A stretch of 64,000 bases of DNA from Candidatus Thorarchaeota archaeon (GTDB taxonomy: Archaea; Asgardarchaeota; Thorarchaeia; Thorarchaeales; Thorarchaeaceae): contig JAWAQK010000004.1 of NCBI GenBank assembly GCA_038893995.1, positions 5,837 through 69,836 of the forward strand. Direction: 5' to 3'. Below are positions 9,436-31,440 of this stretch, one piece after another. The notes beneath the pieces are model-generated. The model made no database searches. It saw only the letters and a program-made list of their open reading frames with translations, and was not told the origin of the DNA. The stretch's first letter is position 1. Each line of letters starts with the position of its first letter. The translations under genes and the position numbers were made by a program.

Positions 9436-9440
9436 ACATC

Positions 9441-9864: not shown

Positions 9865-10644
9865 TCATGTACCAGCAAGGGCCCTGGCAAAAGTGATGTA
9901 TCCCGTATGACCCACCATCCATGTGGGGGGCCGAGTCTTCCCCTCCCTGACCATGATCTCCCGCTGAAGTACCTCGACTGTCTTGACCATCCCCCACTTT
10001 CCACTCTCACCGAGAGCACGACATGTCTTCATGACCTGTTCGATCGTTGGACTGTAGCTGACGATGTATCTGCTTGGCTTGAGGACAGTGTGCGCGATGT
10101 CAAGCACCTCCCACGGAGTTGCCAGGTCAAGTACAACAGCATCCACGTCTCTCTCCTCTATTCCCTCGCGGATATCCCTGTTGTACATTGTCACATTATG
10201 GGTCAGTCCGAATCTCTCAAGATTCCTCCTGGCGTCGTCGAACATGTCCTTTCGTATCTCGTAGGTGTAAACATGGCCCGTCGGCCCGACAGCTCTGGAG
10301 AGTATGCTTGTCAGGGCGCCAGAACCCGTGCCACTCTCAACAACTCGAGACCCAGCGACTATCTCGGCCTCGACAAGGATAGTCCCTGCATCCTTTGGAT
10401 ATACTATCTGAGTGTTTCTTCCCAATGAGACCTGTATGTCCGTCTGGCTGGGCCTGTGTATCTGAAACTCATATCCGGAGTGGCTGATCACCTTTATCCC
10501 ATAGGGACGACCTATGAGTTCGTCAAAATCTATGATCCCTCTGTTGGTATGAAACTTCTCTCCGGTCTTCACGCGCTTTATCCAGTTTCTCTTTGCATCC
10601 AGGAAGATGAGGACGGGTGACCCCTCTTCTATCAGTTCGGGCAT
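9865..10644 (-). CDS. trmI: tRNA (adenine-N1)-methyltransferase TrmI (Gcd14 family)
   Basis: N-terminal beta domain, then a SAM-binding VVESGTGSGALTSIL motif and the VVLDLATPWEVL motif. Length 259 aa. Confidence 0.85.
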   Translation of the reverse strand: MPELIEEGSPVLIFLDAKRNWIKRVKTGEKFHTNRGIIDFDELIGRPYGIKVISHSGYEFQIHRPSQTDIQVSLGRNTQIVYPKDAGTILVEAEIVAGSRVVESGTGSGALTSILSRAVGPTGHVYTYEIRKDMFDDARRNLERFGLTHNVTMYNRDIREGIEERDVDAVVLDLATPWEVLDIAHTVLKPSRYIVSYSPTIEQVMKTCRALGESGKWGMVKTVEVLQREIMVREGKTRPPTWMVGHTGYITFARALAGT

Positions 10645-10745
10645 GAGCGCATCTCGTCAGGACTCGATATTAGAGTTGACGCTGCCGTGTCAAGGTCGTC
10701 TGTTCAACAAAGACTTATCCGGTCATCCTGAATACCGACAGCCGA

Positions 10746-12833
10746 TTGATAATGACAGATGGGAACGACCTTCCACCAAAGTGGGCCCTCACTGGAGAGG
10801 GGTCGTCCGTGGAGGATCATACTGCAGGACTTCAGTCCCGAATAGCCTCACATCTCGAGTTCAGACCCCTCGTACCGCAGCCGCTCGACGTGATGGTCGA
10901 CGAGCATGGCGTCATAGTCGGAAGGTCCACTTCCCTTCACAGCAGATTGGGGCCCGTTGGACTTGGACTTCTTGGTGCGGTCTCAGAGTCCTCTGACGAT
11001 CCGATCGCCTCTTTCCTGGGCAAGCCCGTCCTGATAGACCTGGTCAATCCACATGTAGTAATGGTCTCGGGAAAGAGGGGTTCTGGAAAGAGTCACACGC
11101 TGGGAGTCATTGTCGAGGAGATGGCCCGCTCGATGGAGAAGAGAGAGATCGGCGTGTCGGTGATAGTTGTTGATGTCGTCGACGTGTTCAGACAGATGGT
11201 GGAGCCGAATACAGGAGCGGCAGAGTTGCTTGCAGTATGGGGTCGTGAACCTAGGGGATATCCCGTCGCAGTCTTCATACCCCGTATGACCTACGAACAG
11301 CTACCCGACGATGTCCGTATAAAGTGGTCTCTGCATCCGCTTGCCATCTCGCCGCGTGACCTGACGCAGTCGGACTGGAGCCACGTGTTACAGAAGGAGG
11401 GGCAGCTATCAACGACAATGGAGAACCTGATTGGTGACGTATTGGACGCCATTAGGACCGGCTACGTACTACAAGACGGCGAGACTGTTCCCCCTACGGA
11501 TGACTTCAGCATTGAGGAGATGATCAGGTGCATCAGGAATGACAGTCGTTTCGATGACATCTACAAACCATCCACACGTTCAGCTCTGGTCCAGCGTCTC
11601 AGACGCCTCTCTCGTATGGGGATCTTCCTGAAGAACGGAACGAGTGTTCGGGATCTTGCCGTTGCTGGCAGGATCACCATCGTAGACATGGCGCCGTTGG
11701 GCTCCGACGCAGAGTCTGTACTTGCGGTACTGACGAACATCCTGTGTAGGCAGATACTCTACCACCGGATGTCGTGGGAGTCTGACTCGGTCGATGTTCA
11801 TGAGGAACTGCCACCTGTCTGGCTCGTGATCGATGAGGCTCAGACACTCGTTCCTCGGTCCGGGACTGCACCTGCGGGAGAAGCAATCGTAAACTACGCC
11901 AAGCTGGGTAGACGGTTTGGATGCAGCCTGATACTCTGTACACAACAGCCATCCGCAGTCTCAGACGAGGCCATCTCTCAGGTGGACCTCGCGATCTCGC
12001 ATGCTCTGACACTCGAGGCGGATATCCGTGCCCTTCAACAGCGCGCCCCTGCGCTAATGCCTGATCTTTTCAAGGAGAGGACCTTCATCACAAGCCTTCC
12101 TCGAGGTGCAGCATTGGTCTTCGACCAGAATACCGAGAACAGACGTGGCTTTCTTGTCCAGGTGCGACCCCGAGAGTCCAACCATGGTGGCTCTGACAGG
12201 CTCTCACTCCTGTTCGAGGACCTAAGGCTGCTCAGGGAGTTGGAGCCTACGAAGACCGACGAACATGTCTATGGTACTTCCGAGTCAGACAGGTCTGGTG
12301 TCACCGGAAGCCAGGATATATCAGGCATGACCAGTGATCAGGATGACCAGGGTCAGGGGAGAGATATCTCAGTTCACGAGGAATCATCCCATCTCAAGGG
12401 GGCAGTTGAGGCCACCACACCTCCGTTCAATGTGGCTGCGGTGTCAACCAAGCGGTTCGGCCCACTGCCTGAGGCCCTTCTTGAAGACGCCCTAGTCAGG
12501 ACCATGCTCTACTCACCGATCTCCCATGAGTTTCTCTTTCCGACGCCATCAGTGCGCAAGTCTGCTGTCTCGGTCGTTCGCGAGGACGCAGACCCACGAG
12601 CTCTACTGTCTGCCGTCGTCAACAGACTGAGATCACGCGGCATGGCTGTTGAGAGCCTGAACAGTGCGAACGGCATCCCCCTGGTCATGATGATCTCGGA
12701 TCAGGCCCGGGCAGTTGTCGCCGTAGCTACCAGTGGAAACTCTGTGTGCGCATCGGTCGTGGCAACTGGGGACGAGTCTCGTCAGGTGGAGGCGATTACT
12801 GATACTGTTGGTAGATTGTGCATAGACCAGTGA
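10746..12833 (+). CDS. HerA-like / DUF87 P-loop ATPase with long acidic linker and extra C-terminal domain
   Basis: Walker A VSGKRGSGKSHTLG, Walker B PVWLVIDEAQTLVP, and a LILCTQQPSAV motif. These are followed by a Ser/Asp/Gln-rich low-complexity stretch and a domain of about 150 aa. Confidence 0.72.
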   Translation: MIMTDGNDLPPKWALTGEGSSVEDHTAGLQSRIASHLEFRPLVPQPLDVMVDEHGVIVGRSTSLHSRLGPVGLGLLGAVSESSDDPIASFLGKPVLIDLVNPHVVMVSGKRGSGKSHTLGVIVEEMARSMEKREIGVSVIVVDVVDVFRQMVEPNTGAAELLAVWGREPRGYPVAVFIPRMTYEQLPDDVRIKWSLHPLAISPRDLTQSDWSHVLQKEGQLSTTMENLIGDVLDAIRTGYVLQDGETVPPTDDFSIEEMIRCIRNDSRFDDIYKPSTRSALVQRLRRLSRMGIFLKNGTSVRDLAVAGRITIVDMAPLGSDAESVLAVLTNILCRQILYHRMSWESDSVDVHEELPPVWLVIDEAQTLVPRSGTAPAGEAIVNYAKLGRRFGCSLILCTQQPSAVSDEAISQVDLAISHALTLEADIRALQQRAPALMPDLFKERTFITSLPRGAALVFDQNTENRRGFLVQVRPRESNHGGSDRLSLLFEDLRLLRELEPTKTDEHVYGTSESDRSGVTGSQDISGMTSDQDDQGQGRDISVHEESSHLKGAVEATTPPFNVAAVSTKRFGPLPEALLEDALVRTMLYSPISHEFLFPTPSVRKSAVSVVREDADPRALLSAVVNRLRSRGMAVESLNSANGIPLVMMISDQARAVVAVATSGNSVCASVVATGDESRQVEAITDTVGRLCIDQ

Positions 12834-13237: not shown

Positions 13238-13677
13238 ACCCGTTGCCTAGAGGACCAATATGTCCCCCTGTGTTCACTCCATCGAACAAAGTCTGCGATG
13301 ACCTGTGCATGGTCGAACGCAAGATGCTCGGAGAGTAGGCGCGTCGGAGTGAACCATGAAACGGCCGCTGCGTCATCTCCTGCCTGGGGATGTGTGGCCA
13401 GTGGTCGGCCGACGAAAACAACTGTTACGGTGTGACCACGTGGATCTCGGTCTGGACTGCTATACACGCCCATTATGTCCGTCAGGTCCACTTCGATCCC
13501 AGTCTCCTCCACGATCTCCCGGACTGCGGCATCCTCGACTCTCTCGCCGTACTCCACAAAACCTCCTGGCAATGCCCAGAATCCGCGAAACGGATCATTC
13601 TTTCTGCGGACGAGCAGAACCTGTCCTGTGTCGTCGACTACAATGACGTCTACTGTGAGTGCAGATCGAGGTCGCAT
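13234..13677 (-). CDS. NUDIX hydrolase
   Basis: Canonical Nudix box GGFVEYGERVEDAAVREIVEETG. Confidence 0.85.
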   Translation of the reverse strand: MRPRSALTVDVIVVDDTGQVLLVRRKNDPFRGFWALPGGFVEYGERVEDAAVREIVEETGIEVDLTDIMGVYSSPDRDPRGHTVTVVFVGRPLATHPQAGDDAAAVSWFTPTRLLSEHLAFDHAQVIADFVRWSEHRGTYWSSRQRV

Positions 13678-13678
13678 A

Positions 13679-14719
13679 TCAGTACAGCTCCCTTGATGAG
13701 GCCCTCATGTAATTGATGACGATGAGCCCAGCGAACAGTATGAAAGCAAGCCATATAGCAAAGTTTACCACGATCAGGTTGGTCTTGTAGAACACCTCTA
13801 TCATCAGGAAGAGTCCGACCACAGTGATGTTCGAGACCCCGCCCATCGTGGAGTTCTCGGCCATCCCGAGAGCACGTTTAGTGACCAATACGACCGCCAC
13901 GACAGCCATCGAGATGTAGTTTATGTACTGATTGAACAGATATGACGCGTTCAGGAAGGGGAGTGTTCCGATCGGCGTCGGAATTGGGGGCAGGTACACG
14001 CATAGGAAGATCATGAAGAGCGTCGCCTCAAATAGGCGGACACGGATCATTGGAATGCGAGTATAGACCATGCCGTACACCCCTCTGTCGTACTCCTGTG
14101 CGGCCACCCATATGAAGTGCACAGGGGCGCCCCAGCTGAGGGCATTGACCAGGCACTGCGACACTCCCTGCACGACACCCACCCAGAAGCTGGACCAGCT
14201 CTCTTGAATACGCTCCCAGACAAGAAGATAGCCTGGTGCAAACTGCAGCAGCACGAAGATCGACAGTAGACATACTGCAGAGGCCACGACTACTGCTGCA
14301 GCTGCAGAGATCCTCCTCATGCCCAACCTGCCGAGTGCAGCCCTATAGACGACTGTCGAGGCCAACATGATACCTCCTATCATGGACACTATCGGTGTCA
14401 CGAGTGGCAGGACGAAAAAGAGGCTCACGAAGAGAGCGTTTGCACCGTAGAAGACCCTCCACCTGAGAGGAATTGGACCGGTCGACCGTCTAGCGAGGTA
14501 TACTGTGTTTGCCATGCGATATCGTCGTAAGTAGATTATGGAATCCCACGTGACCGAGAAGATGATGGGCACCACTCCAAAGTGGAACAGTGTGTCGAGG
14601 AACTCATTTCCAAAGGGCGTCATCCTGAAGGGTAACATGTGTACCAGGATGAAGGCGTATGCAGGTATCGAGAGCGCCATGGCCATAACGACCGCCCTGG
14701 TCATCAGTACTCTGGTCAT
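13679..14719 (-). CDS. Hypothetical polytopic membrane protein
   Basis: 346 aa with about 8-9 hydrophobic helices. Its stop lies 1 nt from the NUDIX start, so the two are probably co-transcribed. Confidence 0.5.
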   Translation of the reverse strand: MTRVLMTRAVVMAMALSIPAYAFILVHMLPFRMTPFGNEFLDTLFHFGVVPIIFSVTWDSIIYLRRYRMANTVYLARRSTGPIPLRWRVFYGANALFVSLFFVLPLVTPIVSMIGGIMLASTVVYRAALGRLGMRRISAAAAVVVASAVCLLSIFVLLQFAPGYLLVWERIQESWSSFWVGVVQGVSQCLVNALSWGAPVHFIWVAAQEYDRGVYGMVYTRIPMIRVRLFEATLFMIFLCVYLPPIPTPIGTLPFLNASYLFNQYINYISMAVVAVVLVTKRALGMAENSTMGGVSNITVVGLFLMIEVFYKTNLIVVNFAIWLAFILFAGLIVINYMRASSRELY

Positions 14720-17216: not shown

Positions 17217-18563
17217 TCACTCCGATACTATGGCTACATCCCCGACCTCGCCTGTCCGCACTGACAGTGTCAGCAGGAGGGCTATCACGAGGAACACCAG
17301 CGATACCGGAAACAGGAGTGTCACTCCTTGAATGGACATCAGTAGAGCCGCGGCATCAAATATGATACCCGTGATGAAGGGACCAAGTATTGCTGCACTC
17401 ATGCTGAATCCGTAGTACAGTCCAGTTCCAGCCCCCAGCCGAGACTGCCCCAGCAGTTGCCAGACCATGACGATGGAGTTCACATTCACGAATGCCCAGC
17501 CGGTACCTGCAATGGCGAGGAGACCCAGGATGACCACGTAATCAGTGGCTGGTATCAGTAGCACCAGAGCAACCAACATCAGGACTAGCCCGATCGCTAT
17601 GGTCTTCTTGCGCCCAATTCGACCCGCCAGGTAGCCTGCAGGGACTGCGAATACTATGAATGAGATCGCTATGCCGTTCAACAGGAATGACGCATCTGCA
17701 GTAGCGAATCCCAGCACGTTAGCACCATAAGTGGTGAACCACGTCTCAATTGCGTTGTAGCTCAGAAACCAGAAGAAGATGGCAAGCAACAGAAGCATTG
17801 CAGATCTGTCTCTGGAGAGGGAAACCTGTCGTAATGCCTCGACTATCCCCATCTCTCGTTTAATCTCAGCTGGTAACGGTGTGGCTGGTTCCTTGATGAA
17901 TACGAAAAGCAGTACCAGGGCTACCACCATTATGATGGCAGTCGTCAGAAACGTCAATACCGGTCCTGACTGTTCTGCAGTGACTCCAAGCATTGCCCCG
18001 ATGACAGGGTCGTTGATCTTGTAGATCCTCGAGGCTATTGCAAAAGCATAGACGGCCCCGATACCTCCCATCAGGTTGATCACACCATTAGCCTTGCTCC
18101 TGTGTTCTGGTCCCACAAGATCCGGCATGAGTGCCACAACAGGGGCCCGGTAGAAGGCCATTGACACGTTGAACACGGTCAGTGCGGCCATCATGAACCA
18201 GAACGACGCCATTGCCCATCCGTACGCGATCAGAACGAAGGTGACTGATGCGATAGGGACACCGACCATTATGTATGGCATCCTCCGGCCCCATCTGGTC
18301 CAGGTCCTGTCACTCCGCGCTCCGATATACGGTTGGAGAAAGAACGCGAATATGTTGTCAAGCACCATTATGGCACCAATGATGGTCATCTGAAAATCAC
18401 CGGTGATGAAGACCGGTAAGAAGTCCTTAGGCAGATAGCTGTTGTAGACACCCCAGCTGACGCCTGTAGTAAAGAACCCGAGTCCGATGGTCAGCACGTA
18501 CAGCCATCTCATTCTCTCGGGTCCGCCGGCGTATCCATTGCGCTCATTATTGACTGAACTCAT
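17217..18563 (-). CDS. MFS transporter (GPH/SLC45-like)
   Basis: About 12 TM helices. The loop motif RSDRTWTRWGRRMPYIMVG is typical of glycoside/cation-symporter-like MFS proteins. Confidence 0.78.
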   Translation of the reverse strand: MSSVNNERNGYAGGPERMRWLYVLTIGLGFFTTGVSWGVYNSYLPKDFLPVFITGDFQMTIIGAIMVLDNIFAFFLQPYIGARSDRTWTRWGRRMPYIMVGVPIASVTFVLIAYGWAMASFWFMMAALTVFNVSMAFYRAPVVALMPDLVGPEHRSKANGVINLMGGIGAVYAFAIASRIYKINDPVIGAMLGVTAEQSGPVLTFLTTAIIMVVALVLLFVFIKEPATPLPAEIKREMGIVEALRQVSLSRDRSAMLLLLAIFFWFLSYNAIETWFTTYGANVLGFATADASFLLNGIAISFIVFAVPAGYLAGRIGRKKTIAIGLVLMLVALVLLIPATDYVVILGLLAIAGTGWAFVNVNSIVMVWQLLGQSRLGAGTGLYYGFSMSAAILGPFITGIIFDAAALLMSIQGVTLLFPVSLVFLVIALLLTLSVRTGEVGDVAIVSE

Positions 18564-18703: not shown

Positions 18704-20392
18704 TCAGGGCATGAAGTTCACAAAGAGAGTTGGGCCATTCTTCATGCCGGGGACGTAATTTCTCTCGTAGGGCCCGAAGACGTCGTGCACGCCCGTATTT
18801 ATCATCCACTCGACCCACGACCACGATGCCTCTTGTCCAATCTTCTCCCTGGCATAGCTGCCGTACGTCCAGCTGAGGTAGTTGAGTGCATCCAGTCGGA
18901 GGCCCCTCCTGCCGTCGTCGCTCATCTCTCCGAGACCTGCGTCGAGTGACGAACGCAGTTCCGTCCATCGTGACATGATGAGTTGTTCAGTTTCCTGCAG
19001 GCAGAGATTGATCTCGTCCACATTTCCTGCCTTTCGTGCACGGACCTGTCGCCCAATGATCTTAAAGAGGTCTGTTGTCTGGAGAACCGGTAGGCCTGCC
19101 TCGTTCAATCTCTGCGCCGAGCTCTGACTCCATGGTGTGTTGAAGTAGACTCGCGGATACCTCAGGACTCGCGGAACAGGAAGGCCAAGTTCGCGAATAC
19201 ATGGTAAGACCTGTGCATAGTACGATATCTCTCCCGGTCCGCCAATGTGACAGACTACGGGTAGCATGAAGTCTACGAGTATCTGGCGAGTGTCTACTCT
19301 TGGTGTAAGCATGAGGACATAGTCAGATAGGTCGGGCTGTCTCTCGTCGTACTCGATGCTAATTGTCTGTCCACAGACCGGACACGCCCCAGTGAGAATG
19401 CCCTTTCCCTGCGAATTGCCCTTCCGAATCTGGACCCTGCTCCGATGACAATCTCTCTCAGGGCACTCAAGGAAGAACGGAGAGTAGTCATCTGTCCTCT
19501 GCGGCAGCCCTGCTCTATATCCTGCAGACTCTATTGCCCTCAGGGCCCTATTGCTCTCATTGATGAATCTCACCCGATTTGTCTCAGTCAGGAGGAACTC
19601 CATGCCATCCTGCATCAGCCGTCTGACATCGGGATCAGAGTATGGAATGAGAGGAATTCCGAGGTCTCCAATGATATTGTAGAGGCTTCCCATTATCCTC
19701 TGATGCCAATCGCCCAGGGTGCTTGACTCGAAATACGATGCCCTCACTAGAGCCAGTGCGCTCTCAAGTCTCTCCTGGAAGAGTACTCTTGTCTTTGGCT
19801 CCAGTGTCTTGAACAGAGTCGAGTAGCTGTGCCGGACAGAGTGTTCCACCTGGACATACCACTCTGCATCAGGGAGTGGAAGTGTACCGGCCGGAGAATG
19901 TTCGTAGCCTCTCGGCACGGGAATACTGATCAGGTTCCCCTCTGAGTCTGGTCCAGGTGTCCTCACATTTATGAGCTCCGGCTGAACAACATCATAGTCT
20001 GCCACAAAGAACACAGGCGCCATCTGTCCATTGGCAAAGTCCGCGACTCTCCTTGCGGTTGCTGCCTTGTTCAACATGAACACAGGGCCACCCATACACA
20101 CGGTCTGGTGGGCAGCCTCAACCACACCTGATCCCATGTTGTTGATGCTGACCCTGACCCTCGGTGTCAGTATTCCAATCCGTTGGCTCAGTCTGAGAAG
20201 GACTGACTGTAGCTGTGAGATCCTGCTCTCGTCAAGTGTACCCTGCTGTCCATATGCCTCAAGTACCTGTTCCGCCTCACGAGGCACCGCATCAATCGTG
20301 ATCGGAGGATCGTCGTAGAGGTATCTCGCCAGTTCTGCGTGCTCGCCTCTCCAGATATACGACTGGTAGAGGCCTGCAATACTCTCAGCCAT
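18704..20392 (-). CDS. bshC: BshC-family protein (putative bacillithiol cysteine-adding enzyme) with a 4-Cys insertion
   Basis: 562 aa. The blocks AHQTVCMGGPVFMLNKA, PVFFVADYD and HIGGPGEISYYAQVLP...PVPRVLRYPRV match my memory of BshC-family blocks (GQQxxxxGGPLYxxxK, PVFWxAxEDHD, GGPGEiaYw...P.v.pR). Confidence 0.62.
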   Translation of the reverse strand: MAESIAGLYQSYIWRGEHAELARYLYDDPPITIDAVPREAEQVLEAYGQQGTLDESRISQLQSVLLRLSQRIGILTPRVRVSINNMGSGVVEAAHQTVCMGGPVFMLNKAATARRVADFANGQMAPVFFVADYDVVQPELINVRTPGPDSEGNLISIPVPRGYEHSPAGTLPLPDAEWYVQVEHSVRHSYSTLFKTLEPKTRVLFQERLESALALVRASYFESSTLGDWHQRIMGSLYNIIGDLGIPLIPYSDPDVRRLMQDGMEFLLTETNRVRFINESNRALRAIESAGYRAGLPQRTDDYSPFFLECPERDCHRSRVQIRKGNSQGKGILTGACPVCGQTISIEYDERQPDLSDYVLMLTPRVDTRQILVDFMLPVVCHIGGPGEISYYAQVLPCIRELGLPVPRVLRYPRVYFNTPWSQSSAQRLNEAGLPVLQTTDLFKIIGRQVRARKAGNVDEINLCLQETEQLIMSRWTELRSSLDAGLGEMSDDGRRGLRLDALNYLSWTYGSYAREKIGQEASWSWVEWMINTGVHDVFGPYERNYVPGMKNGPTLFVNFMP

Positions 20393-20404
20393 TCCCTGTC
20401 TCCC

Positions 20405-21574
20405 TCAGCCATTCAGTGCGCTCCTGAGTACCTTCTCGTACCTTGGAACAATCACTTCGGGTGTGAACCCGTCCAATACTCTCCTTCTACCTGCCTTTCC
20501 GAGTCGAGCCCTGAGCCGGTCATCAGTAAGTAGACGAATGACCCCCTCTGCAAGCTCCTCCGTTTCAAATGTCTCGGTGACAATTCCGTCTATCCCGGGC
20601 CTGACCAACTCGGGTACCCCCCCTGCCGGTGTGGTCACGACGGGAAGCTCGCAGGCCATTGCCTCCAGCAGGACAAGAGGCATTCCTTCCAGATTGGAAT
20701 TGAGGACAAAGAGGTCTGCTGACGACATCAGCTCGTTCACATTCGTCCTCACACCGATAAGATGTACTCTATTGCAGAGCCTATGTTGTTCGATCCTCCG
20801 CTCGACCTCTGTCCTTGTGGGCCCATCGCCTACCAGCAACAGCCTTGCTTCGGGAACATTATCCACAACCAGTCGCATGGCATCGATCAGTTCTACTACC
20901 CTCTTCACCCTCCTGAAGTTTGAGACGTGCAGCAATATCCTGTCCTTCCGTGAGACAGTATGATCCCGTCTCTCTCTCATCACTGGGCATCCGTCCTCTA
21001 CAACAAGTTCGACCCTCGATGTGCGACGGAAGACCTTCGGGTCGATGAAGTTTGGAATGACCTCAATCTCTCTCTCTACGCCGAGTTTCTCAATGGCCAT
21101 TTTCCTGAGGAAATCCGCAACTGTCGTCACTCTGTCTGCCTCACGTATGGTGTGCTTCACGACTGGCATGTAGGCGGGATTGGCCCCCAGCATATGTACG
21201 TCGCTGCCATGTAGTGTGAGGACGTACGGCACTCCCGTGATCTCTCTTGCAACATGCGCTGACATGGCATGGGGAATCGCGTAGTGGACATGAATCACGT
21301 CGAGTCTGCTCGTATTCGCGACTTCGACCAATTTTGAGCATAATGTGACTGCATATTGAGTTCCAACGTCCTCAAAGAGTGGGTACTCGCCCTGGTCCAC
21401 CAGGTGAACGAACAGGTGCAAGGGACGTTCTTGGGTCAGGCCAAAGGGAGTCCGGTAGGTGATGAAATGTATCTCATGACCCCTCTGGACCATGTGCTCT
21501 CCAAGCCGTGTCGCCAGGTGTCCCGAGCCTCCGACGGATGGGAACAGACTGACACCTATCTTCATATACTTCAC
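20405..21574 (-). CDS. bshA: GT4 glycosyltransferase, BshA-like (N-acetylglucosaminyl-malate synthase candidate)
   Basis: The N-terminus MKIGVSLFPSVGGSGHLATRLGEHMVQRGHEIHFITYRTPF is very close to the BshA N-terminal signature. The C-terminal GT-B motif EGMPLVLLEAMACELPVV is present. Confidence 0.72.
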   Translation of the reverse strand: MKYMKIGVSLFPSVGGSGHLATRLGEHMVQRGHEIHFITYRTPFGLTQERPLHLFVHLVDQGEYPLFEDVGTQYAVTLCSKLVEVANTSRLDVIHVHYAIPHAMSAHVAREITGVPYVLTLHGSDVHMLGANPAYMPVVKHTIREADRVTTVADFLRKMAIEKLGVEREIEVIPNFIDPKVFRRTSRVELVVEDGCPVMRERRDHTVSRKDRILLHVSNFRRVKRVVELIDAMRLVVDNVPEARLLLVGDGPTRTEVERRIEQHRLCNRVHLIGVRTNVNELMSSADLFVLNSNLEGMPLVLLEAMACELPVVTTPAGGVPELVRPGIDGIVTETFETEELAEGVIRLLTDDRLRARLGKAGRRRVLDGFTPEVIVPRYEKVLRSALNG

Positions 21575-21618
21575 ATTCCTGAGTCGTACTACAATAGGGT
21601 ACTGACAACGTCTTATGC

Positions 21619-22326
21619 GTGGTGGTCCTGCAAATGGTATCGGAGCATCCTCATGCAGGCTCCGGCGGAGATCGTCCTTCTATCCTGGTCGTCTGCGCCC
21701 ATCCTGACGACGAATGTATCGGTGCAGGGGGAACGGTTGCCAAACATGCCCACCTGGGCTTCCCGGTGCATGTATTGTGTCTGACTGGCAATCCAGAACG
21801 ACATAGAGAACTCTCAGCCTCCTGCAAGACGCTTGGCGTCAGCACGCTACGCGCTATCGAACGCGGCGATCACGACATAGACTGGTCTCTAAGAGCAGTT
21901 GTCGTTGAGGCGATACTGGATGTCCGGCCTGCAGTTGTGATAACACACACTCCTGACGACTACAACCGGGCTCATGAGATGTGTCACAGAGTTGTGGTCG
22001 AGGCTGTCGAGTGGGCCTCACATGTCACACAGTTCCCCAACGCACACAGGACCAGGCAAGTCCTCACGATGGAGATAAACACACTTCATCCGCATCCAAA
22101 CATACTTGTCGATGTCTCTTCATCTTATGACGTGGCCATCAGTGCCCTCAGCGAACACAAGTCTCAGCTGAGAAAGTCAGACCGATTCTACGAGCGATTC
22201 TATGACGCAAGGACCAGGCTCAGGGGAGTACAGGCTGGATGTGAACGGGCAGAGGCATTTGGCATAGTTCTCCCAACTCACGCCGGCCCGTTCTACACTA
22301 TCAACAGTGTTGATACGCTTCTCTGA
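21619..22326 (+). CDS. bshB: PIG-L/LmbE-family N-acetylglucosaminyl deacetylase, BshB-like
   Basis: ILVVCAHPDDECIGAGGT zinc-site motif and a later HxDH-type region. The start could be ATG 21634 instead of GTG 21619. Confidence 0.68.
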   Translation: MVVLQMVSEHPHAGSGGDRPSILVVCAHPDDECIGAGGTVAKHAHLGFPVHVLCLTGNPERHRELSASCKTLGVSTLRAIERGDHDIDWSLRAVVVEAILDVRPAVVITHTPDDYNRAHEMCHRVVVEAVEWASHVTQFPNAHRTRQVLTMEINTLHPHPNILVDVSSSYDVAISALSEHKSQLRKSDRFYERFYDARTRLRGVQAGCERAEAFGIVLPTHAGPFYTINSVDTLL

Positions 22327-22327
22327 A

Positions 22328-22720
22328 CTACTCCTGCTCCGTCTCTGATCTCTTTCGTCTGGCGGCGAGCAATGCCTTTAGTTCGCCCATCATGCCGCCT
22401 CCAGGAGAGACTGGCTTCGGAGCGGCCGATACTGGTGCCTTCGCGATTGAGGGTGCTGCCTCGGCCGCCAGTGATGGTCCTCCTTCTGCAGGCGTCGGGG
22501 TGACTCCCCTTGCGATCCTGGACTCGAGAGAGCTGATCTTTGACTCGAGGCTATTCACCTGATTCTGGAGTGAGCTTATGTTCCCCTCAAGGACCCCGAT
22601 TGCCTCTACCAGCTTGTGAGTAATTGTACTGACGACCTCTCCAAGCCCCCTGAGCTTCTCCTCTGTAGGATCCTTGAGTGCCCACTCAAACTCTTCCATG
22701 ATGAAGTCATCGTCGCCCAT
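22328..22720 (-). CDS. Hypothetical coiled-coil protein with a Pro/Ala-rich linker
   Basis: 130 aa. Heptad segment SSLQNQVNSLESKISSLESRI, a low-complexity PA-rich region, and a basic C-terminus. Confidence 0.4.
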   Translation of the reverse strand: MGDDDFIMEEFEWALKDPTEEKLRGLGEVVSTITHKLVEAIGVLEGNISSLQNQVNSLESKISSLESRIARGVTPTPAEGGPSLAAEAAPSIAKAPVSAAPKPVSPGGGMMGELKALLAARRKRSETEQE

Positions 22721-22751: not shown

Positions 22752-24146
22752 CTATAAAGGTTGTCTGCGCCGACTTGCAACCTCCACAATTGTGCTCTGG
22801 ACTATTGGCTCGACGGAGTCGAGGATCTGCCTGAGACCGTCCGATGTCTTTGCCTCACAGGTGATTCTAATCACCGGTTCCGTACCCGAGGGTCTCACAA
22901 GTGCCCAACCATTTCTCAACACGATCCCCAGTCCGTCGACCTTGGTGACACTGACTATCTCGGGTACACTGGACGGCAGTCTCCTCTCTAACAACTCCAT
23001 CACGGGACCCTTGATGTGTTCTTCGCAGTTGAGCTTGACCTTGCTCAGGGGGTACACGGGTATGTCAGAGATGAGTTCTCCAAGAGTGCGGCCTGACTCA
23101 GCCATCAGTTCGAGTACCCTGCATACCGCGAGAAACGGTTCGGGTCCAAGGTGAAAATCGGGAAAGATGAAGACTCCGCAGGCCTCTCCTCCGAAGCATG
23201 CACCAGACTCCTGGATCTTCATGGCCACCTGAATGTCGCCAACGGGTGTGCGTATTGTCGCCCCACCACTCTTTGAGACAGTGTCATCGAGTACCTGTGA
23301 GCTATCGACAGTCGTGACGACTGTCTTGGACGTGCAATCGCGAATCATCTCTCGCGCAAGGAGGGCAATGATCCGGTCTCCTCGTATGACCTCTCCAGTC
23401 TCTGACACGAAGACGACCCGGTCTGAATCGCCATCATGTGCCACACCCAGCGCGGCCCCACTCTGTCTTACCATAGTGACAAGGTCAGCAAGGGACTCTT
23501 CGTCCGGCTCCGATCTTCTGCCCGGAAAGTGCCCATCGAGCTGGCCGTTGATACTCAGGACTTTACATCCAAGCTTACGCAGCAGGTACGGGGTCATGAG
23601 AGTACCAACACCATTACCGGGGTCGACCACCACCTTGAACCCCATGGATGCCACAAGACCAACGTCACAACGGTCTAGGATCGCCGTCATGTGTCTGGAA
23701 ACTGCATGGTCAATCTGGGTGTCCTTTCCCAGCCGGTCCCACGTCTGGCGCTTGAACTCTCTGCGCTGCAGTATGTCCTCTATCCGCCGTTCCTGCTCGG
23801 GTGTGTAGCCCATGCCATCGGACCGCCAGAACTTGACCCCTGTGTACTCCGGTGGATTATGCGACGCAGTCACTATGACTCCTGCAGCGTATCGATCAAC
23901 TCCGGTCATGAATGCCAGAGTCGGTGTCGGTATCGTGCCCGCACGCACAACATCGACACCTGTTGACATCACGCCGGCAGCAAATGCATCTGCAATCATT
24001 CTCCCCGTCGTTCGGGCATCTTGCGCAAGTAGGATCTTCCCCTCACCAAGATAGGTCCCGAGAGCCATACCGAGGTCCAGCGCGAGATCCAGGGTGAACT
24101 CTGTCCCGTAGACCTTTCTCACTCCTGTCGTTCCAAAGAGGGACAC
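22752..24146 (-). CDS. glmM: Phosphoglucosamine mutase / phosphohexomutase
   Basis: Active-site TASHNPPEYTGVKF, metal-site HDGDSDR, and the sugar loop. I prefer GTG 24146 (VSLFGTTGVR), which is preceded by GGTGGTGA, over the track start at 24209. Confidence 0.85.
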   Translation of the reverse strand: MSLFGTTGVRKVYGTEFTLDLALDLGMALGTYLGEGKILLAQDARTTGRMIADAFAAGVMSTGVDVVRAGTIPTPTLAFMTGVDRYAAGVIVTASHNPPEYTGVKFWRSDGMGYTPEQERRIEDILQRREFKRQTWDRLGKDTQIDHAVSRHMTAILDRCDVGLVASMGFKVVVDPGNGVGTLMTPYLLRKLGCKVLSINGQLDGHFPGRRSEPDEESLADLVTMVRQSGAALGVAHDGDSDRVVFVSETGEVIRGDRIIALLAREMIRDCTSKTVVTTVDSSQVLDDTVSKSGGATIRTPVGDIQVAMKIQESGACFGGEACGVFIFPDFHLGPEPFLAVCRVLELMAESGRTLGELISDIPVYPLSKVKLNCEEHIKGPVMELLERRLPSSVPEIVSVTKVDGLGIVLRNGWALVRPSGTEPVIRITCEAKTSDGLRQILDSVEPIVQSTIVEVASRRRQPL

Positions 24147-24341
24147 CTTCTCACCACCAGACCCTGTTCTGTGGTAGATGAAAAATGTAATGCTCTGAGG
24201 GGGGAACACTCTTGAACTCCGGTCAGTCGAGTGACCTCTGGAATCCTGATACTGGTCCGAGAAAGCTTATTAGGCCCGCATGAGCTACTCGCCAACCGAT
24301 TACTGGCGGTCAAGACGATACTGGAGAGTCTGGAATGGCAG

Positions 24342-28295: not shown

Positions 28296-29603
28296 CTACA
28301 GATCAAACCCGGTCCGACCAGTTCCCCATGACTCGAGGGCCCTGCGTAGCTCAACATGGTCCTCTGCATACTTCTTGAGGGGTATCTTGTTCATGACTGC
28401 ATCGATTGCCTGACGGAATGCCCTGGCACCGGCCCTTGGCCCGTCAGGATGTGCGTGAATGCCGCCCCCCGAGCCGATGACTATGTCTGGTCCCAGGTCT
28501 CCGACGACTTCGTCCACCATCCCAGGTGAGATACCTCCGCTAGGCATGGGTGCAGTCTGTCTGATGTGATGTAGAGGCATGACCATCTCCCTGGCCATTG
28601 CAATGAATCTCTCTTTCAGCAGTGGTGCTTTCCCATATGGGGCCGGAAATACAGTGATGTCAGAACCACAGATGCGTGGCAGCTTGCCTATGACGAGGTT
28701 GGTTCCCACTCCGGTTATTGGCGAATAGGACAGAGCACCCGTTATGTCCATGTGAGCCAGTACGGGCACGTTTAGCGATGGGTCCTCACATACATGGCGG
28801 AACGCGGAATACCCCACTGCGAGGAAGTTTATCATCAGTGCATTTGCACCAAGCTCTATTGCCCGCTCTGCGTTCTCGAACATCTTCGGGACCTCGTCCG
28901 TGATGTTCACCGTGAAGAGCGTCTTCTCTCCCTTCTCCGAGTTGGCCCGGTCAATGGCCTCCATGAATAGTGGGATTCTCTCCTCGATGGAGTTGAAACA
29001 GGCATTCGCGAGGAGTTCGTCATCCTTGATTATGTCCGCTCCGCCGGCCGCAGCCTCGTAACAGAGACTCGCACCCAGTTTGGCCGAAGTATACACACAG
29101 GGCTTGATCATATTGTTGAGCAGCGGGCGTTCCTTCACCCCGAGCAGCTTTCTGAGACCCTCGATGCCGAACTTTGGTCCCTTGAACTCCTTCAGCCAAC
29201 TCTGTGGAAACCTGAGGTCTAGGAGCTTTATCCTGCCACCAAGAGATATGTTTCCCACCACCGTGCTCAGGAGCATCGGTATCTGAGCCCCAAAGTTCTC
29301 CCACGGAAAGGCTACCTGAATGATGTACTCTCGTCTCTCGAGGTCCTTGGGAATGCTATACTCATACTGGGGGACCTCGTACACGCCGATTACCCTTGCA
29401 ATATGCCGTCTCCTCACATCGGGAGTTTCTCCTGGCACTGGTGTCCAAGTACCAGTGCTCTGCTCCACTGCGGCAGCATGAGCTACCTCTCTCGCATCTA
29501 TGAATGGAGGTAATCCAACATAGTACGTACCTATCACATACTTCTCCGGGTCAATCGCATCGGCAAGTGCGTCTGGCAGGGAATCGAGTGGCTCTCTGTG
29601 CAT
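28296..29603 (-). CDS. RuBisCO large-subunit-like protein (form-III-related; probably non-carboxylating form IV / RLP)
   Basis: EQSTGTW, IIKDDE, PSGGISPG and GGGIHAHPDGPRAGARAFRQAIDAV are clearly RbcL-family. However, KPK is KPC, HRAMH is HMDIT, and the H327-equivalent is T (see findings). Confidence 0.85.
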   Translation of the reverse strand: MHREPLDSLPDALADAIDPEKYVIGTYYVGLPPFIDAREVAHAAAVEQSTGTWTPVPGETPDVRRRHIARVIGVYEVPQYEYSIPKDLERREYIIQVAFPWENFGAQIPMLLSTVVGNISLGGRIKLLDLRFPQSWLKEFKGPKFGIEGLRKLLGVKERPLLNNMIKPCVYTSAKLGASLCYEAAAGGADIIKDDELLANACFNSIEERIPLFMEAIDRANSEKGEKTLFTVNITDEVPKMFENAERAIELGANALMINFLAVGYSAFRHVCEDPSLNVPVLAHMDITGALSYSPITGVGTNLVIGKLPRICGSDITVFPAPYGKAPLLKERFIAMAREMVMPLHHIRQTAPMPSGGISPGMVDEVVGDLGPDIVIGSGGGIHAHPDGPRAGARAFRQAIDAVMNKIPLKKYAEDHVELRRALESWGTGRTGFDL

Positions 29604-29777
29604 CTTGATCGTCAGTTTCTTCGGCCTACTGTCTATTATTTCCTTCTGAAGGGACAGCCGCGCCCATGTTCTTCAGTCTCCCACTCGCAACAGGGCTGGA
29701 CGACCTCTATTTGTGACAAGGCCAGCATGAGGGGATTCTGGAGTACACGCGGGCGGAAGTGTCCCATAGCTTGGTTT

Positions 29778-31424
29778 ATGAGTAGATGGCTCGGCAATCA
29801 CCCAGAAAACAAAGGGAGCCTTAGATTCACGTTGAGACCCATCCTCGAGATTGCCCGGAGTATTGGTATTCCAGACGATTGCGTTGAACCTTACGGACAG
29901 TACATGGCAAAGATAAGCCTCAGGGCAAGGGATGTTCTGAAGGAGCGGCGTGGTCGTCTCATTCTTGTGACCGCGACAACTCCGACTCCCTCTGGAGAGG
30001 GCAAGACTACCAATGCAATCGGACTGTCGATGGCCCTGAATAGGCTGGGCTATAGTGCGGTGGTCACGCTCAGGGAACCATCATTGGGCCCAGTCTTTGG
30101 TGTGAAGGGCGGTGCCGCTGGTGGCGGGAGGTCTCAGGTCCTCCCGTCCGAGAGGATCAATCTCTTGTTCACGGGGGACTTTCCGGCAGTCAGTGCAGCA
30201 CACAATCTGTTGGCTGCGATGATCGACAATCACATCTACCAGGGGAATGCACTCGGAATAGATGTCGTAAAGGTGAGCTGGCCGCGCACCGTAGACATGA
30301 ATGATCGTGCTCTCAGGGAGATAGTTGTTGCGCTGGGTCAGAAGAACGGCATCCCCCGCGAGACATCGTTCGTGATAACAGCAGCCTCGGAGGTCATGGC
30401 CATTCTTGCCCTTGCAAAGGACTATGAAGACCTACGAGAGCGGCTTGGTAGGATTGTAGTCGGAGCGACCACAACAAAGGAAGATGTGTGCGCGCGGGAT
30501 CTCAAGGCTGATGGTGCAATGAGCGTTCTCCTCAGGGATGCACTCATGCCCAATCTCGTCCAGACCTCGGAGGGCACTCCGGCAATCGTCCACACAGGTC
30601 CATTTGCGAACATTGCACACGGTACCAACTCGGTGATTGCCATAGATATGGCACTAAGGCTCTTCGACTACGTGGTTGTCGAGGCCGGCTTCGGAGCTGA
30701 CCTTGGTGCCGAGAAGTTTGTCAACATTGTGTCCCGCGTTGGAAACTTCAATATCGACGCGGTTGCACTCATCACCTCGATTCGTGCCCTGGAGGAGCAT
30801 GGCAAAGGTGATCTTAGGGCGGGATTCCCCAACCTGGAGGTACATGCCGAGAACATACACAGCTGGGGGCTCCCTCTTGTCGTGGTACTCAATCGTTTCC
30901 CTGACGATACATCCGAGAAGATCGACATCCTCAGGAAGCTCTGTCAGGACCGGGGCTGGCAGTTCGAGGTCTCCGAGGTGTACGCCAAGGGCAGTGAGGG
31001 CGGACTGTCTGTGGCCAGAGCCGTTGTAGAAGCGGCTAGCAAGGGTTCTGAACTGAGAAGGACCTACGAACTGAGTGACAGCATCAAGTCGAAGATAGAG
31101 AAGGTCGCTAAGCAGGTGTATCATGCCTCAAGGGTGTCCTATTCGGAAGACGCAGAGAGTCAGCTAAGACGACTTGAAAAGCGGGGATACGGCAGCCTGC
31201 CGGTCTGCATTGCTAAGACTCAATTCTCGATATCAGACAACCCGAAGCTCAAGGGCCGACCCAGCGGCTTCGAAGTCTCTGTCCGTGAGGTCGAGCTGAA
31301 CGCAGGTGCGGGCTTCATCGTGGTCCTGATGGGAGACATACTCAGAATGCCCGGACTGCCCAAGCAACCTGCAGCAGAGGGGATGAGCATCGATGAAAAT
31401 GGAGAAATATCAGGAGTCTTTTGA
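29778..31424 (+). CDS. fhs: Formate--tetrahydrofolate ligase
   Basis: TPTPSGEGKTT P-loop, EPSLGPVFGVKGGAAGGG and FAVSEVYAKGSEGG-type blocks. 548 aa from ATG 29778. Confidence 0.9.
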   Translation: MSRWLGNHPENKGSLRFTLRPILEIARSIGIPDDCVEPYGQYMAKISLRARDVLKERRGRLILVTATTPTPSGEGKTTNAIGLSMALNRLGYSAVVTLREPSLGPVFGVKGGAAGGGRSQVLPSERINLLFTGDFPAVSAAHNLLAAMIDNHIYQGNALGIDVVKVSWPRTVDMNDRALREIVVALGQKNGIPRETSFVITAASEVMAILALAKDYEDLRERLGRIVVGATTTKEDVCARDLKADGAMSVLLRDALMPNLVQTSEGTPAIVHTGPFANIAHGTNSVIAIDMALRLFDYVVVEAGFGADLGAEKFVNIVSRVGNFNIDAVALITSIRALEEHGKGDLRAGFPNLEVHAENIHSWGLPLVVVLNRFPDDTSEKIDILRKLCQDRGWQFEVSEVYAKGSEGGLSVARAVVEAASKGSELRRTYELSDSIKSKIEKVAKQVYHASRVSYSEDAESQLRRLEKRGYGSLPVCIAKTQFSISDNPKLKGRPSGFEVSVREVELNAGAGFIVVLMGDILRMPGLPKQPAAEGMSIDENGEISGVF

Positions 31425-31440
31425 TTGATGGTGAATCGAG

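What the first reader, a model, noticed from the sequence alone, without database searches (positions are those of the whole stretch)
18704..22326. Complete bacillithiol-type biosynthesis gene set (bshA-bshC operon, divergent bshB) in an archaeal context
A BshA-like GT4 (N-terminus almost a textbook BshA signature) is followed 12 nt later by a BshC-family protein on the same strand. A PIG-L/LmbE deacetylase diverges from them across a spacer of only about 45-60 nt. A phosphoglucosamine mutase (the route to UDP-GlcNAc, the BshA donor) lies 0.4 kb further on.

Established knowledge: BshA, BshB and BshC make bacillithiol in Firmicutes and some other bacteria. Low-molecular-weight thiols of Asgard archaea are, as far as I know, uncharacterised. 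Clustering of all three genes argues for a functional, possibly horizontally acquired, LMW-thiol pathway.
Basis: partly seen in the sequence, partly recalled or inferred. Interest (0 to 1): 0.7.

Follow-up and report, generated by a model that had tools for sequence, protein, structure and literature searches.

The report
Archaeal-type bacillithiol gene cluster in Thorarchaeota
A Thorarchaeota (Asgard) genome carries a conserved three-gene cluster that most likely makes bacillithiol or a close relative, a sugar-cysteine antioxidant so far detected only in bacteria; two of its three enzymes belong to divergent archaeal subfamilies, and the cluster had been noticed before but never characterised.

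Summary
bshC-like (18704-20392, -) follows bshA (20405-21574, -) after 12 nt. A PIG-L deacetylase (21619-22326, +) diverges across 44-59 nt, and an archaeal GlmM lies 0.4 kb beyond.

BshA passes NCBI's curated equivalog cut-off (373 vs 273.7 bits). The other two do not: BshC-like scores 63.6 vs 265.8 and PIG-L 80.4 vs 182.5. BshC-like is still a full-length structural homologue of B. subtilis BshC (TM 0.68-0.70) and keeps nine residues invariant in both clades. It belongs to a separate archaeal clade, most of whose members carry a Cys4 zinc-ribbon-like motif that is absent from bacterial BshC.

The same three families cluster in three different gene orders in Thorarchaeota (49 loci), Bathyarchaeia (18) and a Heimdall-type contig. 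In Bathyarchaeia a DinB/MST thiol-transferase and a CxxC redoxin join them. This supports a functional low-molecular-weight thiol pathway.

Nothing indicates recent transfer from bacteria. Novelty is limited: a 2020 review reported BshA/BshC hits in Asgard archaea, and NCBI already annotates the orthologues. No bacilliredoxin, YpdA or DinB gene lies in the window, and the product is unverified.

The parts
18704..20392 (-). Archaeal-type BshC-family protein (562 aa), the putative cysteine-adding enzyme
   Evidence: Pfam PF10079 scores 55.8 vs 27. TIGR03998 scores 63.6 vs 265.8, a fail. The AF2 model has pLDDT 86 and its top PDB match is 4WBD BshC, E 8.6e-17, TM 0.68/0.70. Nine residues are invariant in both archaeal and bacterial clades.
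19373..19465 (-). Cys4 (C310-x4-C315 ... C337-x2-C340) zinc-ribbon-like module inside BshC-like, flanking the family-invariant R319
   Evidence: All four Cys are invariant in 40 Thor homologues. The motif is present in 17/28 archaeal-type and 0/73 bacterial-type representatives. The region is beta-rich with pLDDT 83-93.
20393..20404 (-). 12-nt bshA-bshC junction (GGGAGACAGGGA), purine-rich and Shine-Dalgarno-like, implying an operon with coupled translation
   Evidence: Read directly from the sequence.
20405..21574 (-). [quoted passage not shown]
   Evidence: TIGR03999 equivalog scores 373.4 vs 273.7, a pass; the next GT4 model scores 142 bits and fails. The best PDB sequence hits are BshA structures 2JJM/3MBO/5D00. 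Identity to B. anthracis BshA is 39%, with the acceptor domain at 40% and the donor domain at 38%.
21575..21633 (.). Divergent bshA / PIG-L promoter spacer (44-59 nt) containing the quasi-palindrome GTACTACAATAGGGTAC
   Evidence: Sequence read. It lacks the two spacer motifs that are conserved in most other Thor loci.
21619..22326 (+). PIG-L/LmbE-family deacetylase (235 aa; 230 aa from the ATG at 21634), the putative GlcNAc-malate deacetylase (BshB analogue)
   Evidence: Pfam PIG-L scores 68.5 vs 28.2. BshB1 scores 80.4 vs 182.5, a fail. The Zn/base residues H28, D30, D31 and H119 are invariant, but 'DYNxxH' replaces 'HPDH'. The AF2 model has pLDDT 90.5. Fold matches to BshB and Dac are similar. 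The gene is linked to BshA/BshC in three lineages.
22752..24209 (-). Archaeal phosphoglucosamine mutase GlmM (supplies the UDP-GlcNAc precursor); context, adjacent to the cluster only in Thorarchaeota
   Evidence: TIGR03990 scores 510 vs 439. It is adjacent in all Thor loci that extend that far, but not in Bathyarchaeia or Heimdall loci.
22328..22720 (-). Conserved 130-aa coiled-coil ORF co-directional with GlmM; function unknown, context only
   Evidence: Conserved at this position in about 45 Thor loci at 45-69% identity. It has no significant family match.

Best explanation
The window carries the Thorarchaeota version of an archaeal-type bacillithiol (BSH) pathway. BshA condenses UDP-GlcNAc with L-malate to give GlcNAc-malate. 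The divergently transcribed PIG-L zinc deacetylase removes the acetyl group to give GlcN-malate. The BshC-family enzyme, co-transcribed with bshA, adds cysteine to give Cys-GlcN-malate (bacillithiol) or a very close derivative, which serves as a low-molecular-weight thiol redox buffer. Shown here: family and fold assignments, conserved catalytic residues, operon-like junctions, and repeated co-localisation across archaeal lineages. Inferred: the substrates, the product, and the claim that the PIG-L performs the BshB step. The cluster is a long-standing, vertically inherited feature of Thorarchaeota and not a recent bacterial import.
For: BshA passes the curated equivalog model (373 vs 273.7 bits), as do the Bathyarchaeia and Heimdall orthologues (414 and 319 bits). 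Its acceptor domain is as conserved relative to crystallised B. anthracis BshA as its donor domain (40% vs 38%). BshC-like passes Pfam PF10079. Its confident model superposes on B. subtilis BshC over the full length, including the C-terminal helical domain (TM 0.68-0.70). Q96, G102, K109, D134, E139, R319, G385, E388 and Y391 are 100% conserved in 29 archaeal-type and 73 bacterial-type sequences. PIG-L keeps the zinc ligands and catalytic Asp and scores best against BshB1, then BshB2, then MshB and Mca. Co-localisation: 49 Thor loci have PIG-L divergent from BshA-BshC. 18 Bathyarchaeia loci have PIG-L, Amidohydro_2, BshC, then a convergent BshA. A Heimdall-type contig has BshC, a convergent BshA, then a divergent PIG-L. 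The PIG-Ls of all three lineages form one subfamily. In Bathyarchaeia the cluster also holds a DinB/MST-type thiol S-transferase (15 loci) and a WCGDC thioredoxin-fold protein (14 loci), both hallmarks of low-molecular-weight thiol systems. A bacterial-type methyltransferase-PIG-L-BshC fusion (P0186) independently ties PIG-L to BshC.
Against: BshC-like and PIG-L fall far below the curated equivalog cut-offs (63.6 vs 265.8 and 80.4 vs 182.5), as do all other archaeal-type members tested. The Thor PIG-L has Asn where BshB, MshB and Dac have the first His of HPDH. No bacilliredoxin, YpdA/Bdr, DinB transferase or NmbA gene lies in the 64-kb window. [quoted passage not shown] The reaction of BshC had not been reconstituted in vitro for any organism as of the 2018 review (PMC5790435), so 'cysteine ligase' is genetic inference even in bacteria. 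There is no expression or metabolite evidence.
Confidence: 0.65

Rival explanations
1. The cluster makes a related but different thiol or amino-sugar conjugate. Examples are an N-modified bacillithiol, a different hydroxy-acid aglycone, or a different amino acid added by the divergent BshC-like enzyme.
For: BshC-like and PIG-L are distinct subfamilies that fail the equivalog cut-offs. Only the archaeal clade carries the Cys4 module. Thor PIG-L has an altered active-site motif. Bathyarchaeia clusters add an Amidohydro_2 enzyme with no counterpart in bacterial bsh loci.
Against: BshA passes the malate-synthase equivalog model by 100 bits, and its acceptor domain is as conserved as its donor domain. 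All residues invariant in bacterial BshC are kept. Amidohydro_2 is absent from Thor and Heimdall clusters, so it is not a core component.
Confidence: 0.2
2. This is not a thiol pathway. The GT4 and PIG-L pair makes or remodels a GlcN-containing glycoconjugate, or deacetylates chitobiose as the archaeal Dac enzymes do, and the BshC-like protein has an unrelated role.
For: The PIG-L model matches Pyrococcus diacetylchitobiose deacetylases as well as it matches BshB (E 8e-16, TM 0.74-0.76). One public annotation calls a Thor orthologue 'diacetylchitobiose deacetylase'. No redox partner gene lies in the window.
Against: The triad with a BshC-family gene recurs in three lineages and three gene orders. 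DinB/MST and a CxxC redoxin sit inside the Bathyarchaeia clusters. No chitin-catabolic genes flank the cluster. The compact BshB structures (2IXD, 6ULL, 1UAN) give higher target-normalised TM scores (0.78-0.84) and higher identity than Dac (0.66-0.69).
Confidence: 0.1
3. The cluster is a recent horizontal acquisition from bacteria, or a bacterial contaminant contig.
For: BshA is 39% identical to Firmicute BshA, which is high for an inter-domain comparison. BSH is otherwise known only from bacteria.
Against: The cluster's GC content (0.53-0.55) equals the window average. Its flanks are archaeal, and the gene order is fixed across 49 Thor loci. Archaeal-type BshC forms a clean bipartition from 73 bacterial representatives, with internal diversity (0.74) close to that of the bacteria (0.79). 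An ancient inter-domain transfer of bshA cannot be excluded.
Confidence: 0.04

Closest known systems
Bacterial bacillithiol biosynthesis, BshA-BshB-BshC (Bacillus, Staphylococcus, Deinococcus, Chlorobi)
   Same: The same three enzyme families are present. BshA meets the curated equivalog definition. BshC-like has the same overall fold and the same invariant residues. PIG-L has the same zinc/base motif. As occasionally in bacteria, the genes are co-localised.
   Different: BshC-like and PIG-L are separate archaeal subfamilies (63.6 and 80.4 bits against cut-offs of 265.8 and 182.5). BshC-like carries a Cys4 module that is absent from all 73 bacterial representatives. Thor PIG-L has DYNxxH in place of HPDH. 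All three genes are tightly clustered. No Brx or YpdA partner is nearby. The product has never been detected in any archaeon.
Mycothiol biosynthesis, MshA-MshB-MshC-MshD (Actinobacteria)
   Same: The chemistry follows the same logic: a GT4 glycosyltransferase, then a PIG-L deacetylase, then a cysteine ligase of class I aaRS ancestry.
   Different: The MshA model scores 53 vs 462.5 bits and MshB 34 vs 224. MshC (3C8Z) is only a marginal fold match at E 0.8. There is no MshD-type acetyltransferase in the cluster.
Archaeal diacetylchitobiose deacetylase (Dac, Thermococcales)
   Same: The PIG-L fold is the same and the structural similarity is comparable (TM 0.74-0.76).
   Different: Dac is larger (about 267 aa), keeps HPDH, and works in chitin catabolism. 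Here the gene is tied to BshA and BshC in three lineages.
Annotated bshA/bshC genes of Thorarchaeota MAGs (NCBI PGAP; Rawat & Maupin-Furlow 2020)
   Same: These are orthologues at 44-64% identity in the same gene order. The window is one more member of this set.
   Different: Public annotation calls the deacetylase only a generic 'PIG-L family' protein. No held paper describes the three-gene cluster, its archaeal subfamilies, the Cys4 module or the Bathyarchaeia extension.

Membership tests
BshA (NCBIfam TIGR03999, GlcNAc-malate synthase) | Whole-protein score at or above the curated equivalog cut-off (273.7 bits) | tested here: met
   373.4 bits, E 1e-111; the next-best GT4 model, EpsE, scores 142 vs 400.
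BshA (NCBIfam TIGR03999, GlcNAc-malate synthase) | GT-B/GT4 two-domain architecture, with solved BshA structures as the closest structures | tested here: met
   Pfam Glyco_transf_4 plus Glycos_transf_1. The top PDB hits are 2JJM/3MBO/5D00/6N1X, all BshA.
BshA (NCBIfam TIGR03999, GlcNAc-malate synthase) | L-malate acceptor site | tested here: inconclusive
   Only a proxy was available: the acceptor (N-terminal) domain is 40% identical to B. anthracis BshA and the donor domain 38%. The residue-level definitions sit in papers that are not held.
BshB (NCBIfam TIGR04001 BshB1 / TIGR04000 BshB2) | Whole-protein score at or above the curated cut-off (182.5 / 195.25 bits) | tested here: not met
   80.4 and 67.4 bits. 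The Bathyarchaeia and Heimdall cluster-linked PIG-Ls score 57-86 bits.
BshB (NCBIfam TIGR04001 BshB1 / TIGR04000 BshB2) | PIG-L fold with zinc ligands His-x-Asp-Asp ... His and a catalytic Asp | tested here: met
   H28, D30, D31 and H119 align with BC1534 H12, D14, D15 and H113 and are invariant in 25 homologues. The fold matches 2IXD, 6ULL and 1UAN at TM 0.77-0.79.
BshB (NCBIfam TIGR04001 BshB1 / TIGR04000 BshB2) | Canonical H-P-D-H motif (first His, BC1534 H110) | tested here: not met
   The Thor family has an invariant D114-Y-N116-x-x-H119. Bathyarchaeia and Heimdall relatives keep DYH(R/H)EH.
BshB (NCBIfam TIGR04001 BshB1 / TIGR04000 BshB2) | GlcNAc-malate deacetylase activity | not testable with these tools
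   Requires an enzyme assay.
BshC (Pfam PF10079 / NCBIfam TIGR03998) | Pfam Rossmann-like BshC domain above the gathering score | tested here: met
   55.8 vs 27 bits, covering residues 58-410.
BshC (Pfam PF10079 / NCBIfam TIGR03998) | NCBIfam equivalog cut-off (265.8 bits) | tested here: not met
   63.6 bits. Other archaeal-type members score 43-79 bits, while six bacterial-type representatives score 372-535.
BshC (Pfam PF10079 / NCBIfam TIGR03998) | Full-length BshC fold, including the C-terminal helical (coiled-coil) domain | tested here: met
   Foldseek top hit 4WBD, E 8.6e-17, TM 0.68/0.70 over 592 columns. The model has long helices at 440-510.
BshC (Pfam PF10079 / NCBIfam TIGR03998) | Family-invariant residues | tested here: met
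   Q96, G102, K109, D134, E139, R319, G385, E388 and Y391 are 100% conserved in both clades.
BshC (Pfam PF10079 / NCBIfam TIGR03998) | Cysteine addition to GlcN-malate | not testable with these tools
   Not reconstituted in vitro for any BshC as of the 2018 review PMC5790435.
Mycothiol pathway (MshA/MshB/MshC) | Scores above the MshA and MshB cut-offs; MshC-like ligase | tested here: not met
   MshA 53 vs 462.5 and MshB 33.6 vs 224. MshC 3C8Z gives Foldseek E 0.8.
Complete bacillithiol redox system | Bacilliredoxin (BrxA/B/C), YpdA/Bdr reductase or DinB-type S-transferase encoded nearby | tested here: not met
   None among the ORFs of the 64-kb window that were scanned against Pfam, nor in the Thor loci. 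Bathyarchaeia clusters do carry DinB/MST and a CxxC Trx-fold gene. The rest of the genome could not be searched.

The most novel reading that the evidence does not exclude
The archaeal-type module (canonical BshA, a dedicated PIG-L subfamily and a Cys4-bearing BshC subfamily) is an ancient, vertically inherited archaeal pathway shared by Asgard (Thor, Heimdall) and Bathyarchaeia. Its product is not plain bacillithiol but a distinct archaeal sugar-thiol. Alternatively, its zinc-ribbon BshC uses a different activated cysteine donor, in which case the archaeal enzyme would be the tractable route to the still-unknown BshC reaction.
Probability: 0.15. Interest if true: 0.75.

Novelty: new variant of a known kind. 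Interest (0 to 1): 0.45.

Why it matters
According to the 2020 review (PMC7278568), bacillithiol has not been detected in any archaeon, and Asgard archaea are the closest known prokaryotic relatives of eukaryotes. If the cluster is functional, these anaerobic sediment archaea would use a bacterial-type sugar-thiol redox buffer. The cluster also provides a compact three-gene set for heterologous reconstitution. The biochemical reaction of BshC had not been reconstituted as of 2018, and a deeply divergent orthologue with the same invariant residues plus a Cys4 module offers a new handle on it. The work also explains why a 2025 RefSeq BLAST survey with bacterial queries, a strict E-value threshold and over 80% coverage found no archaeal pathway: the archaeal BshB and BshC are too divergent to pass such thresholds. 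However, the presence of BshA/BshC homologues in Asgard archaea is already published and annotated, so this refines earlier work and is not a discovery.

Tried and rejected
1. Mycothiol and GPI-type assignment: rejected on HMM scores and fold.

2. Recent HGT or contamination: rejected on GC content, archaeal flanks, fixed synteny and the separate BshC clade.

3. Residue-level test of the BshA malate site and the BshC active site against the structural papers (PMC2943542, PMC5954418, PMC4303302, PMC6511738): none is held. Domain-wise identity and cross-clade invariant residues were used instead.

4. Fold search to decide between BshB and Dac for the PIG-L: not discriminating.

5. Partner genes (Brx, YpdA, DinB, NmbA) in the window: none found.

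6. BshA phylogeny against bacteria: not done.

7. GlmM adjacency as functional evidence: downgraded, because it holds only in Thor, where about 15 kb of synteny is conserved anyway.

8. Literature search for a post-2018 reconstitution of BshC: uninformative.

9. Rfam and tRNA scans of the window: nothing found.


Full report
OBSERVATION. The ORFs are exactly as described. The BshC-like gene is 18704-20392 (-, 562 aa). BshA is 20405-21574 (-, 389 aa, GTG start, alternative ATG at 21565). PIG-L is 21619-22326 (+, 235 aa from a GTG; the gene caller uses the ATG at 21634, giving 230 aa). The bshA stop and the bshC ATG are separated by 12 nt of purine-rich, SD-like sequence (GGGAGACAGGGA), which fits an operon. 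The divergent spacer is 44-68 nt depending on which start codons are used. GlmM (22752-24209, -) passes the archaeal GlmM equivalog model (510 vs 439 bits). A conserved 130-aa coiled-coil ORF lies between GlmM and PIG-L.

The context is Asgard. The window encodes A-type ATPase subunits, a Ras-family GTPase, RuBisCO and a folate C1 cluster. The nearest homologues of all three proteins are Thorarchaeota/Promethearchaeota MAGs at only 50-64% identity, so the window comes from a divergent Thor lineage. The cluster's GC content (0.53-0.55) matches the window.

FAMILY TESTS. BshA passes NCBI's curated equivalog model (373.4 vs 273.7 bits), and every other GT4 model fails. Its best solved relatives are the BshA structures 2JJM, 3MBO and 5D00. 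It is 39% identical to B. anthracis BshA, with the acceptor domain (40%) as conserved as the donor domain (38%).

The BshC-like protein passes Pfam PF10079 (55.8 vs 27) but falls far short of the NCBIfam equivalog cut-off (63.6 vs 265.8). PIG-L passes Pfam, and its best curated matches are BshB1 (80.4 vs 182.5) and BshB2 (67.4); MshB and Mca match only at the N-terminal motif. The mycothiol models are rejected (MshA 53 vs 462.5).

WHAT THE BshC-LIKE PROTEIN IS. An exhaustive phmmer search of 1.84 billion representatives gave two tiers. About 47 clusters matched at E <= 1e-30 over the full length. Scores then fell to about 1e-13 for proteins of about 540 aa that aligned only over the core. Six of the lower-tier proteins were tested and all pass TIGR03998 (372-535 bits), so they are canonical bacterial BshC. 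Four upper-tier proteins score 43-79 bits. Names recovered for the upper tier are Thorarchaeota, Promethearchaeota, Heimdallarchaeota/Kariarchaeum and Bathyarchaeota.

A neighbour-joining tree separates 29 archaeal-type from 73 bacterial-type sequences in one clean bipartition. Diversity within the archaeal clade (0.74) is close to that within the bacterial clade (0.79). The tree is unrooted and crude, but it gives no sign of shallow nesting in bacteria.

An AlphaFold model built from 40 Thor homologues is confident (pLDDT 86, pTM 0.88). Its best PDB match is B. subtilis BshC 4WBD (E 8.6e-17, TM 0.68/0.70 over the full length, 14% identity), followed by class I Lys-, Met- and Glu-tRNA synthetases; MshC is marginal. 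In a joint alignment, Q96, G102, K109, D134, E139, R319, G385, E388 and Y391 are 100% conserved in both clades. This argues for the same active-site chemistry.

The archaeal clade has a distinguishing feature, C310-x4-C315 ... C337-x2-C340. These four Cys are invariant in 40 Thor sequences. The motif is present in 17/28 archaeal-type representatives, and many others keep only the second knuckle. It is absent from 0/73 bacterial representatives. It decorates a beta-hairpin subdomain that bacteria also have, and it flanks the invariant R319. I infer a structural zinc ribbon, because four Cys ligands leave no open coordination site.

WHAT THE PIG-L IS. The zinc ligands and the catalytic Asp (H28, D30, D31, H119) align with BC1534 H12, D14, D15 and H113, and they are invariant. 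The Thor family, however, has an invariant DYNxxH where BshB, MshB and Dac have HPDH. The cluster-linked PIG-Ls of Bathyarchaeia and Heimdall belong to the same subfamily (30-43% identity) and keep DYH(R/H)EH.

The model (pLDDT 90.5) matches the compact BshB-type structures: 2IXD at TM 0.79/0.80, B. subtilis BshB 6ULL at 0.77/0.78 with rmsd 2.4 A, and Thermus TT1542 at 0.78/0.84. It matches the archaeal diacetylchitobiose deacetylases about equally well (TM 0.74-0.76/0.66-0.69). MshB is clearly worse at 0.54-0.59. Fold alone therefore does not decide its function; the genomic context does.

CONTEXT CONSERVATION. A genome-contig scan with the BshC alignment returned 80 loci, and I screened them by tblastn. 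In 49 Thor-type loci the order is GlmM, cc130, PIG-L (divergent), BshA, BshC, then a convergent aminotransferase and OMP decarboxylase. The loci that lack PIG-L or BshA end at a contig edge, with one exception, L052.

In 23 Bathyarchaeia-type loci the order is PIG-L, Amidohydro_2, BshC, then a convergent BshA; 18 of them include PIG-L. A thioredoxin-fold protein with a WCGDC motif often lies between BshC and BshA (14 loci), and a DinB/MST-type thiol S-transferase lies beyond BshA (15 loci). A marine Heimdall-type contig has BshC, a convergent BshA and a divergent PIG-L. All archaeal BshAs tested pass the equivalog cut-off (319-414 bits).

Three gene orders, three lineages and the same three subfamilies make strong evidence for functional coupling. 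DinB-type transferases and CxxC redoxins are the expected companions of a bacillithiol- or mycothiol-type thiol; BstA and MST are DinB-superfamily enzymes (PMC5790435). A bacterial-type methyltransferase-PIG-L-BshC fusion (P0186) also links the deacetylase to BshC.

MECHANISM. Most likely (0.65), BshA makes GlcNAc-malate from UDP-GlcNAc, the PIG-L deacetylates it, and the BshC-like enzyme adds cysteine to give bacillithiol or a close derivative. The family and fold assignments, conserved residues and gene linkage are shown here. The substrates and product are inferred. The rivals are a variant thiol (0.2), a non-thiol glycoconjugate or chitobiose role (0.1), and recent HGT or contamination (0.04).

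WEAKNESSES. Two of the three enzymes fail the curated membership cut-offs. No Brx, YpdA, DinB or NmbA gene is in the window or in the Thor loci. [quoted passage not shown] The BshC reaction had not been reconstituted anywhere as of 2018.

PRIOR KNOWLEDGE AND NOVELTY. Rawat & Maupin-Furlow 2020 (PMC7278568) reported 39 archaeal InterPro hits each for BshA and BshC, mostly Asgard, and suggested that archaea may make BSH. NCBI PGAP names the Thor orthologues BshA and BshC but labels the deacetylase only as a PIG-L family protein. A 2025 RefSeq BLAST survey with C. tepidum queries found no archaea with the pathway (PMC12719100). The divergence measured here explains that result.

No held paper links bacillithiol with Thorarchaeota or Bathyarchaeia. 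The core finding is therefore already flagged. The additions here are the conserved three-gene cluster, the archaeal BshB and BshC subfamilies, the Cys4 module, the Bathyarchaeia six-gene unit and the lack of evidence for recent HGT. I rate it a new variant of a known kind, with interest 0.45.

Noticed in passing
L002-L063 (Thor loci), PIG-L/BshA spacer; compare window 21575-21633: Most Thor loci share two conserved spacer motifs. CTAATCAAGSTTTGGC lies about 25 nt upstream of the PIG-L ATG (41 of 49 loci by regex). ACCATTTGCCTTAAAGGG lies 35-45 nt upstream of bshA (about 37 loci). Within each ~15 kb locus they occur almost only in this spacer, so they look like cluster-specific promoter or regulator sites. 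The window and its nearest relative L041 lack both, and the window has no CTTAAAGG anywhere in 64 kb.
   Followed up: partly
window 17217-18563 (-): An MFS transporter (448 aa) sits 140 nt downstream of bshC, with its own TATA-like element (TCTATATAC). It is absent from this position in all 80 related loci, so it is a lineage-specific insertion between bshC and the conserved aminotransferase. Whether it relates to thiol export is unknown.
   Followed up: partly
L060 and L064 (and about 20 other Bathyarchaeia loci), roughly 4400-11000: Bathyarchaeia carry a conserved six-gene unit: PIG-L, Amidohydro_2 (PF04909), BshC-like, Trx-fold (Thioredoxin_9, WCGDC), BshA and DinB/MST. The Amidohydro_2 gene sits between PIG-L and BshC in 22 loci and has no known role in bacillithiol metabolism.
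   Followed up: partly
L052:4685-8395 (closed Thorarchaeota chromosome CP070658.1): A 1,236-aa ORF joins an AAA_16-TPR (STAND-like) region to the C-terminal two-thirds of BshC (from about residue 108). BshA and PIG-L are missing upstream. This is probably a degenerate or rearranged locus, meaning the pathway was lost in this lineage, or else an assembly artefact.
   Followed up: partly
P0186 (1,217 aa): A natural fusion of a SAM methyltransferase, a PIG-L deacetylase and a bacterial-type BshC domain (PF10079, 248 bits). It acts as a 'Rosetta stone' linking BshB to BshC and suggests an N-methyl-bacillithiol synthase in one polypeptide.
   Followed up: no
window 22328-22720 (-): A 130-aa coiled-coil, low-complexity ORF lies 31 nt downstream of GlmM on the same strand. 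It is conserved at this position in about 45 Thor loci (45-69% identity) but has no family match.
   Followed up: no
L076 (DATKWN010000061.1) and L080 (DATKWY010000193.1): These contigs are labelled Krumholzibacteriaceae and Desulfaltia (bacteria), yet they carry the Bathyarchaeia-type cluster; the DinB of L076 is 91% identical to that of a Bathyarchaeia locus. They are probably mis-binned archaeal contigs.
   Followed up: no
L059 and L066 (closed Bathyarchaeota chromosome CP070640.1): This chromosome carries two BshC-like/BshA pairs, neither with a PIG-L within 7 kb. L066 keeps Amidohydro_2 and DinB, while L059 has neither.
   Followed up: no
L084:6348-7928 and 13257-14627 (Heimdall-type marine contig): A Hydantoinase_B/oxoprolinase-family gene lies 73 nt upstream of BshC on the same strand, and a DNA photolyase lies nearby. 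This fits a light- and oxygen-exposed lifestyle for this lineage.
   Followed up: no
window 52446-59147 (-), 60093-63950 (-), 45535-46671 (-): The window also encodes a 2,233-aa protein with at least 17 bacterial TSP3 repeats and beta-propeller regions, a 1,285-aa subtilase (S8) fusion and an LRR protein. These are large putative surface or secreted proteins unrelated to the finding.
   Followed up: no
window 28296-33995: A RuBisCO large-subunit homologue lies next to formate-THF ligase, FolD and formiminotransferase-cyclodeaminase, forming a folate-dependent C1 cluster.
   Followed up: no
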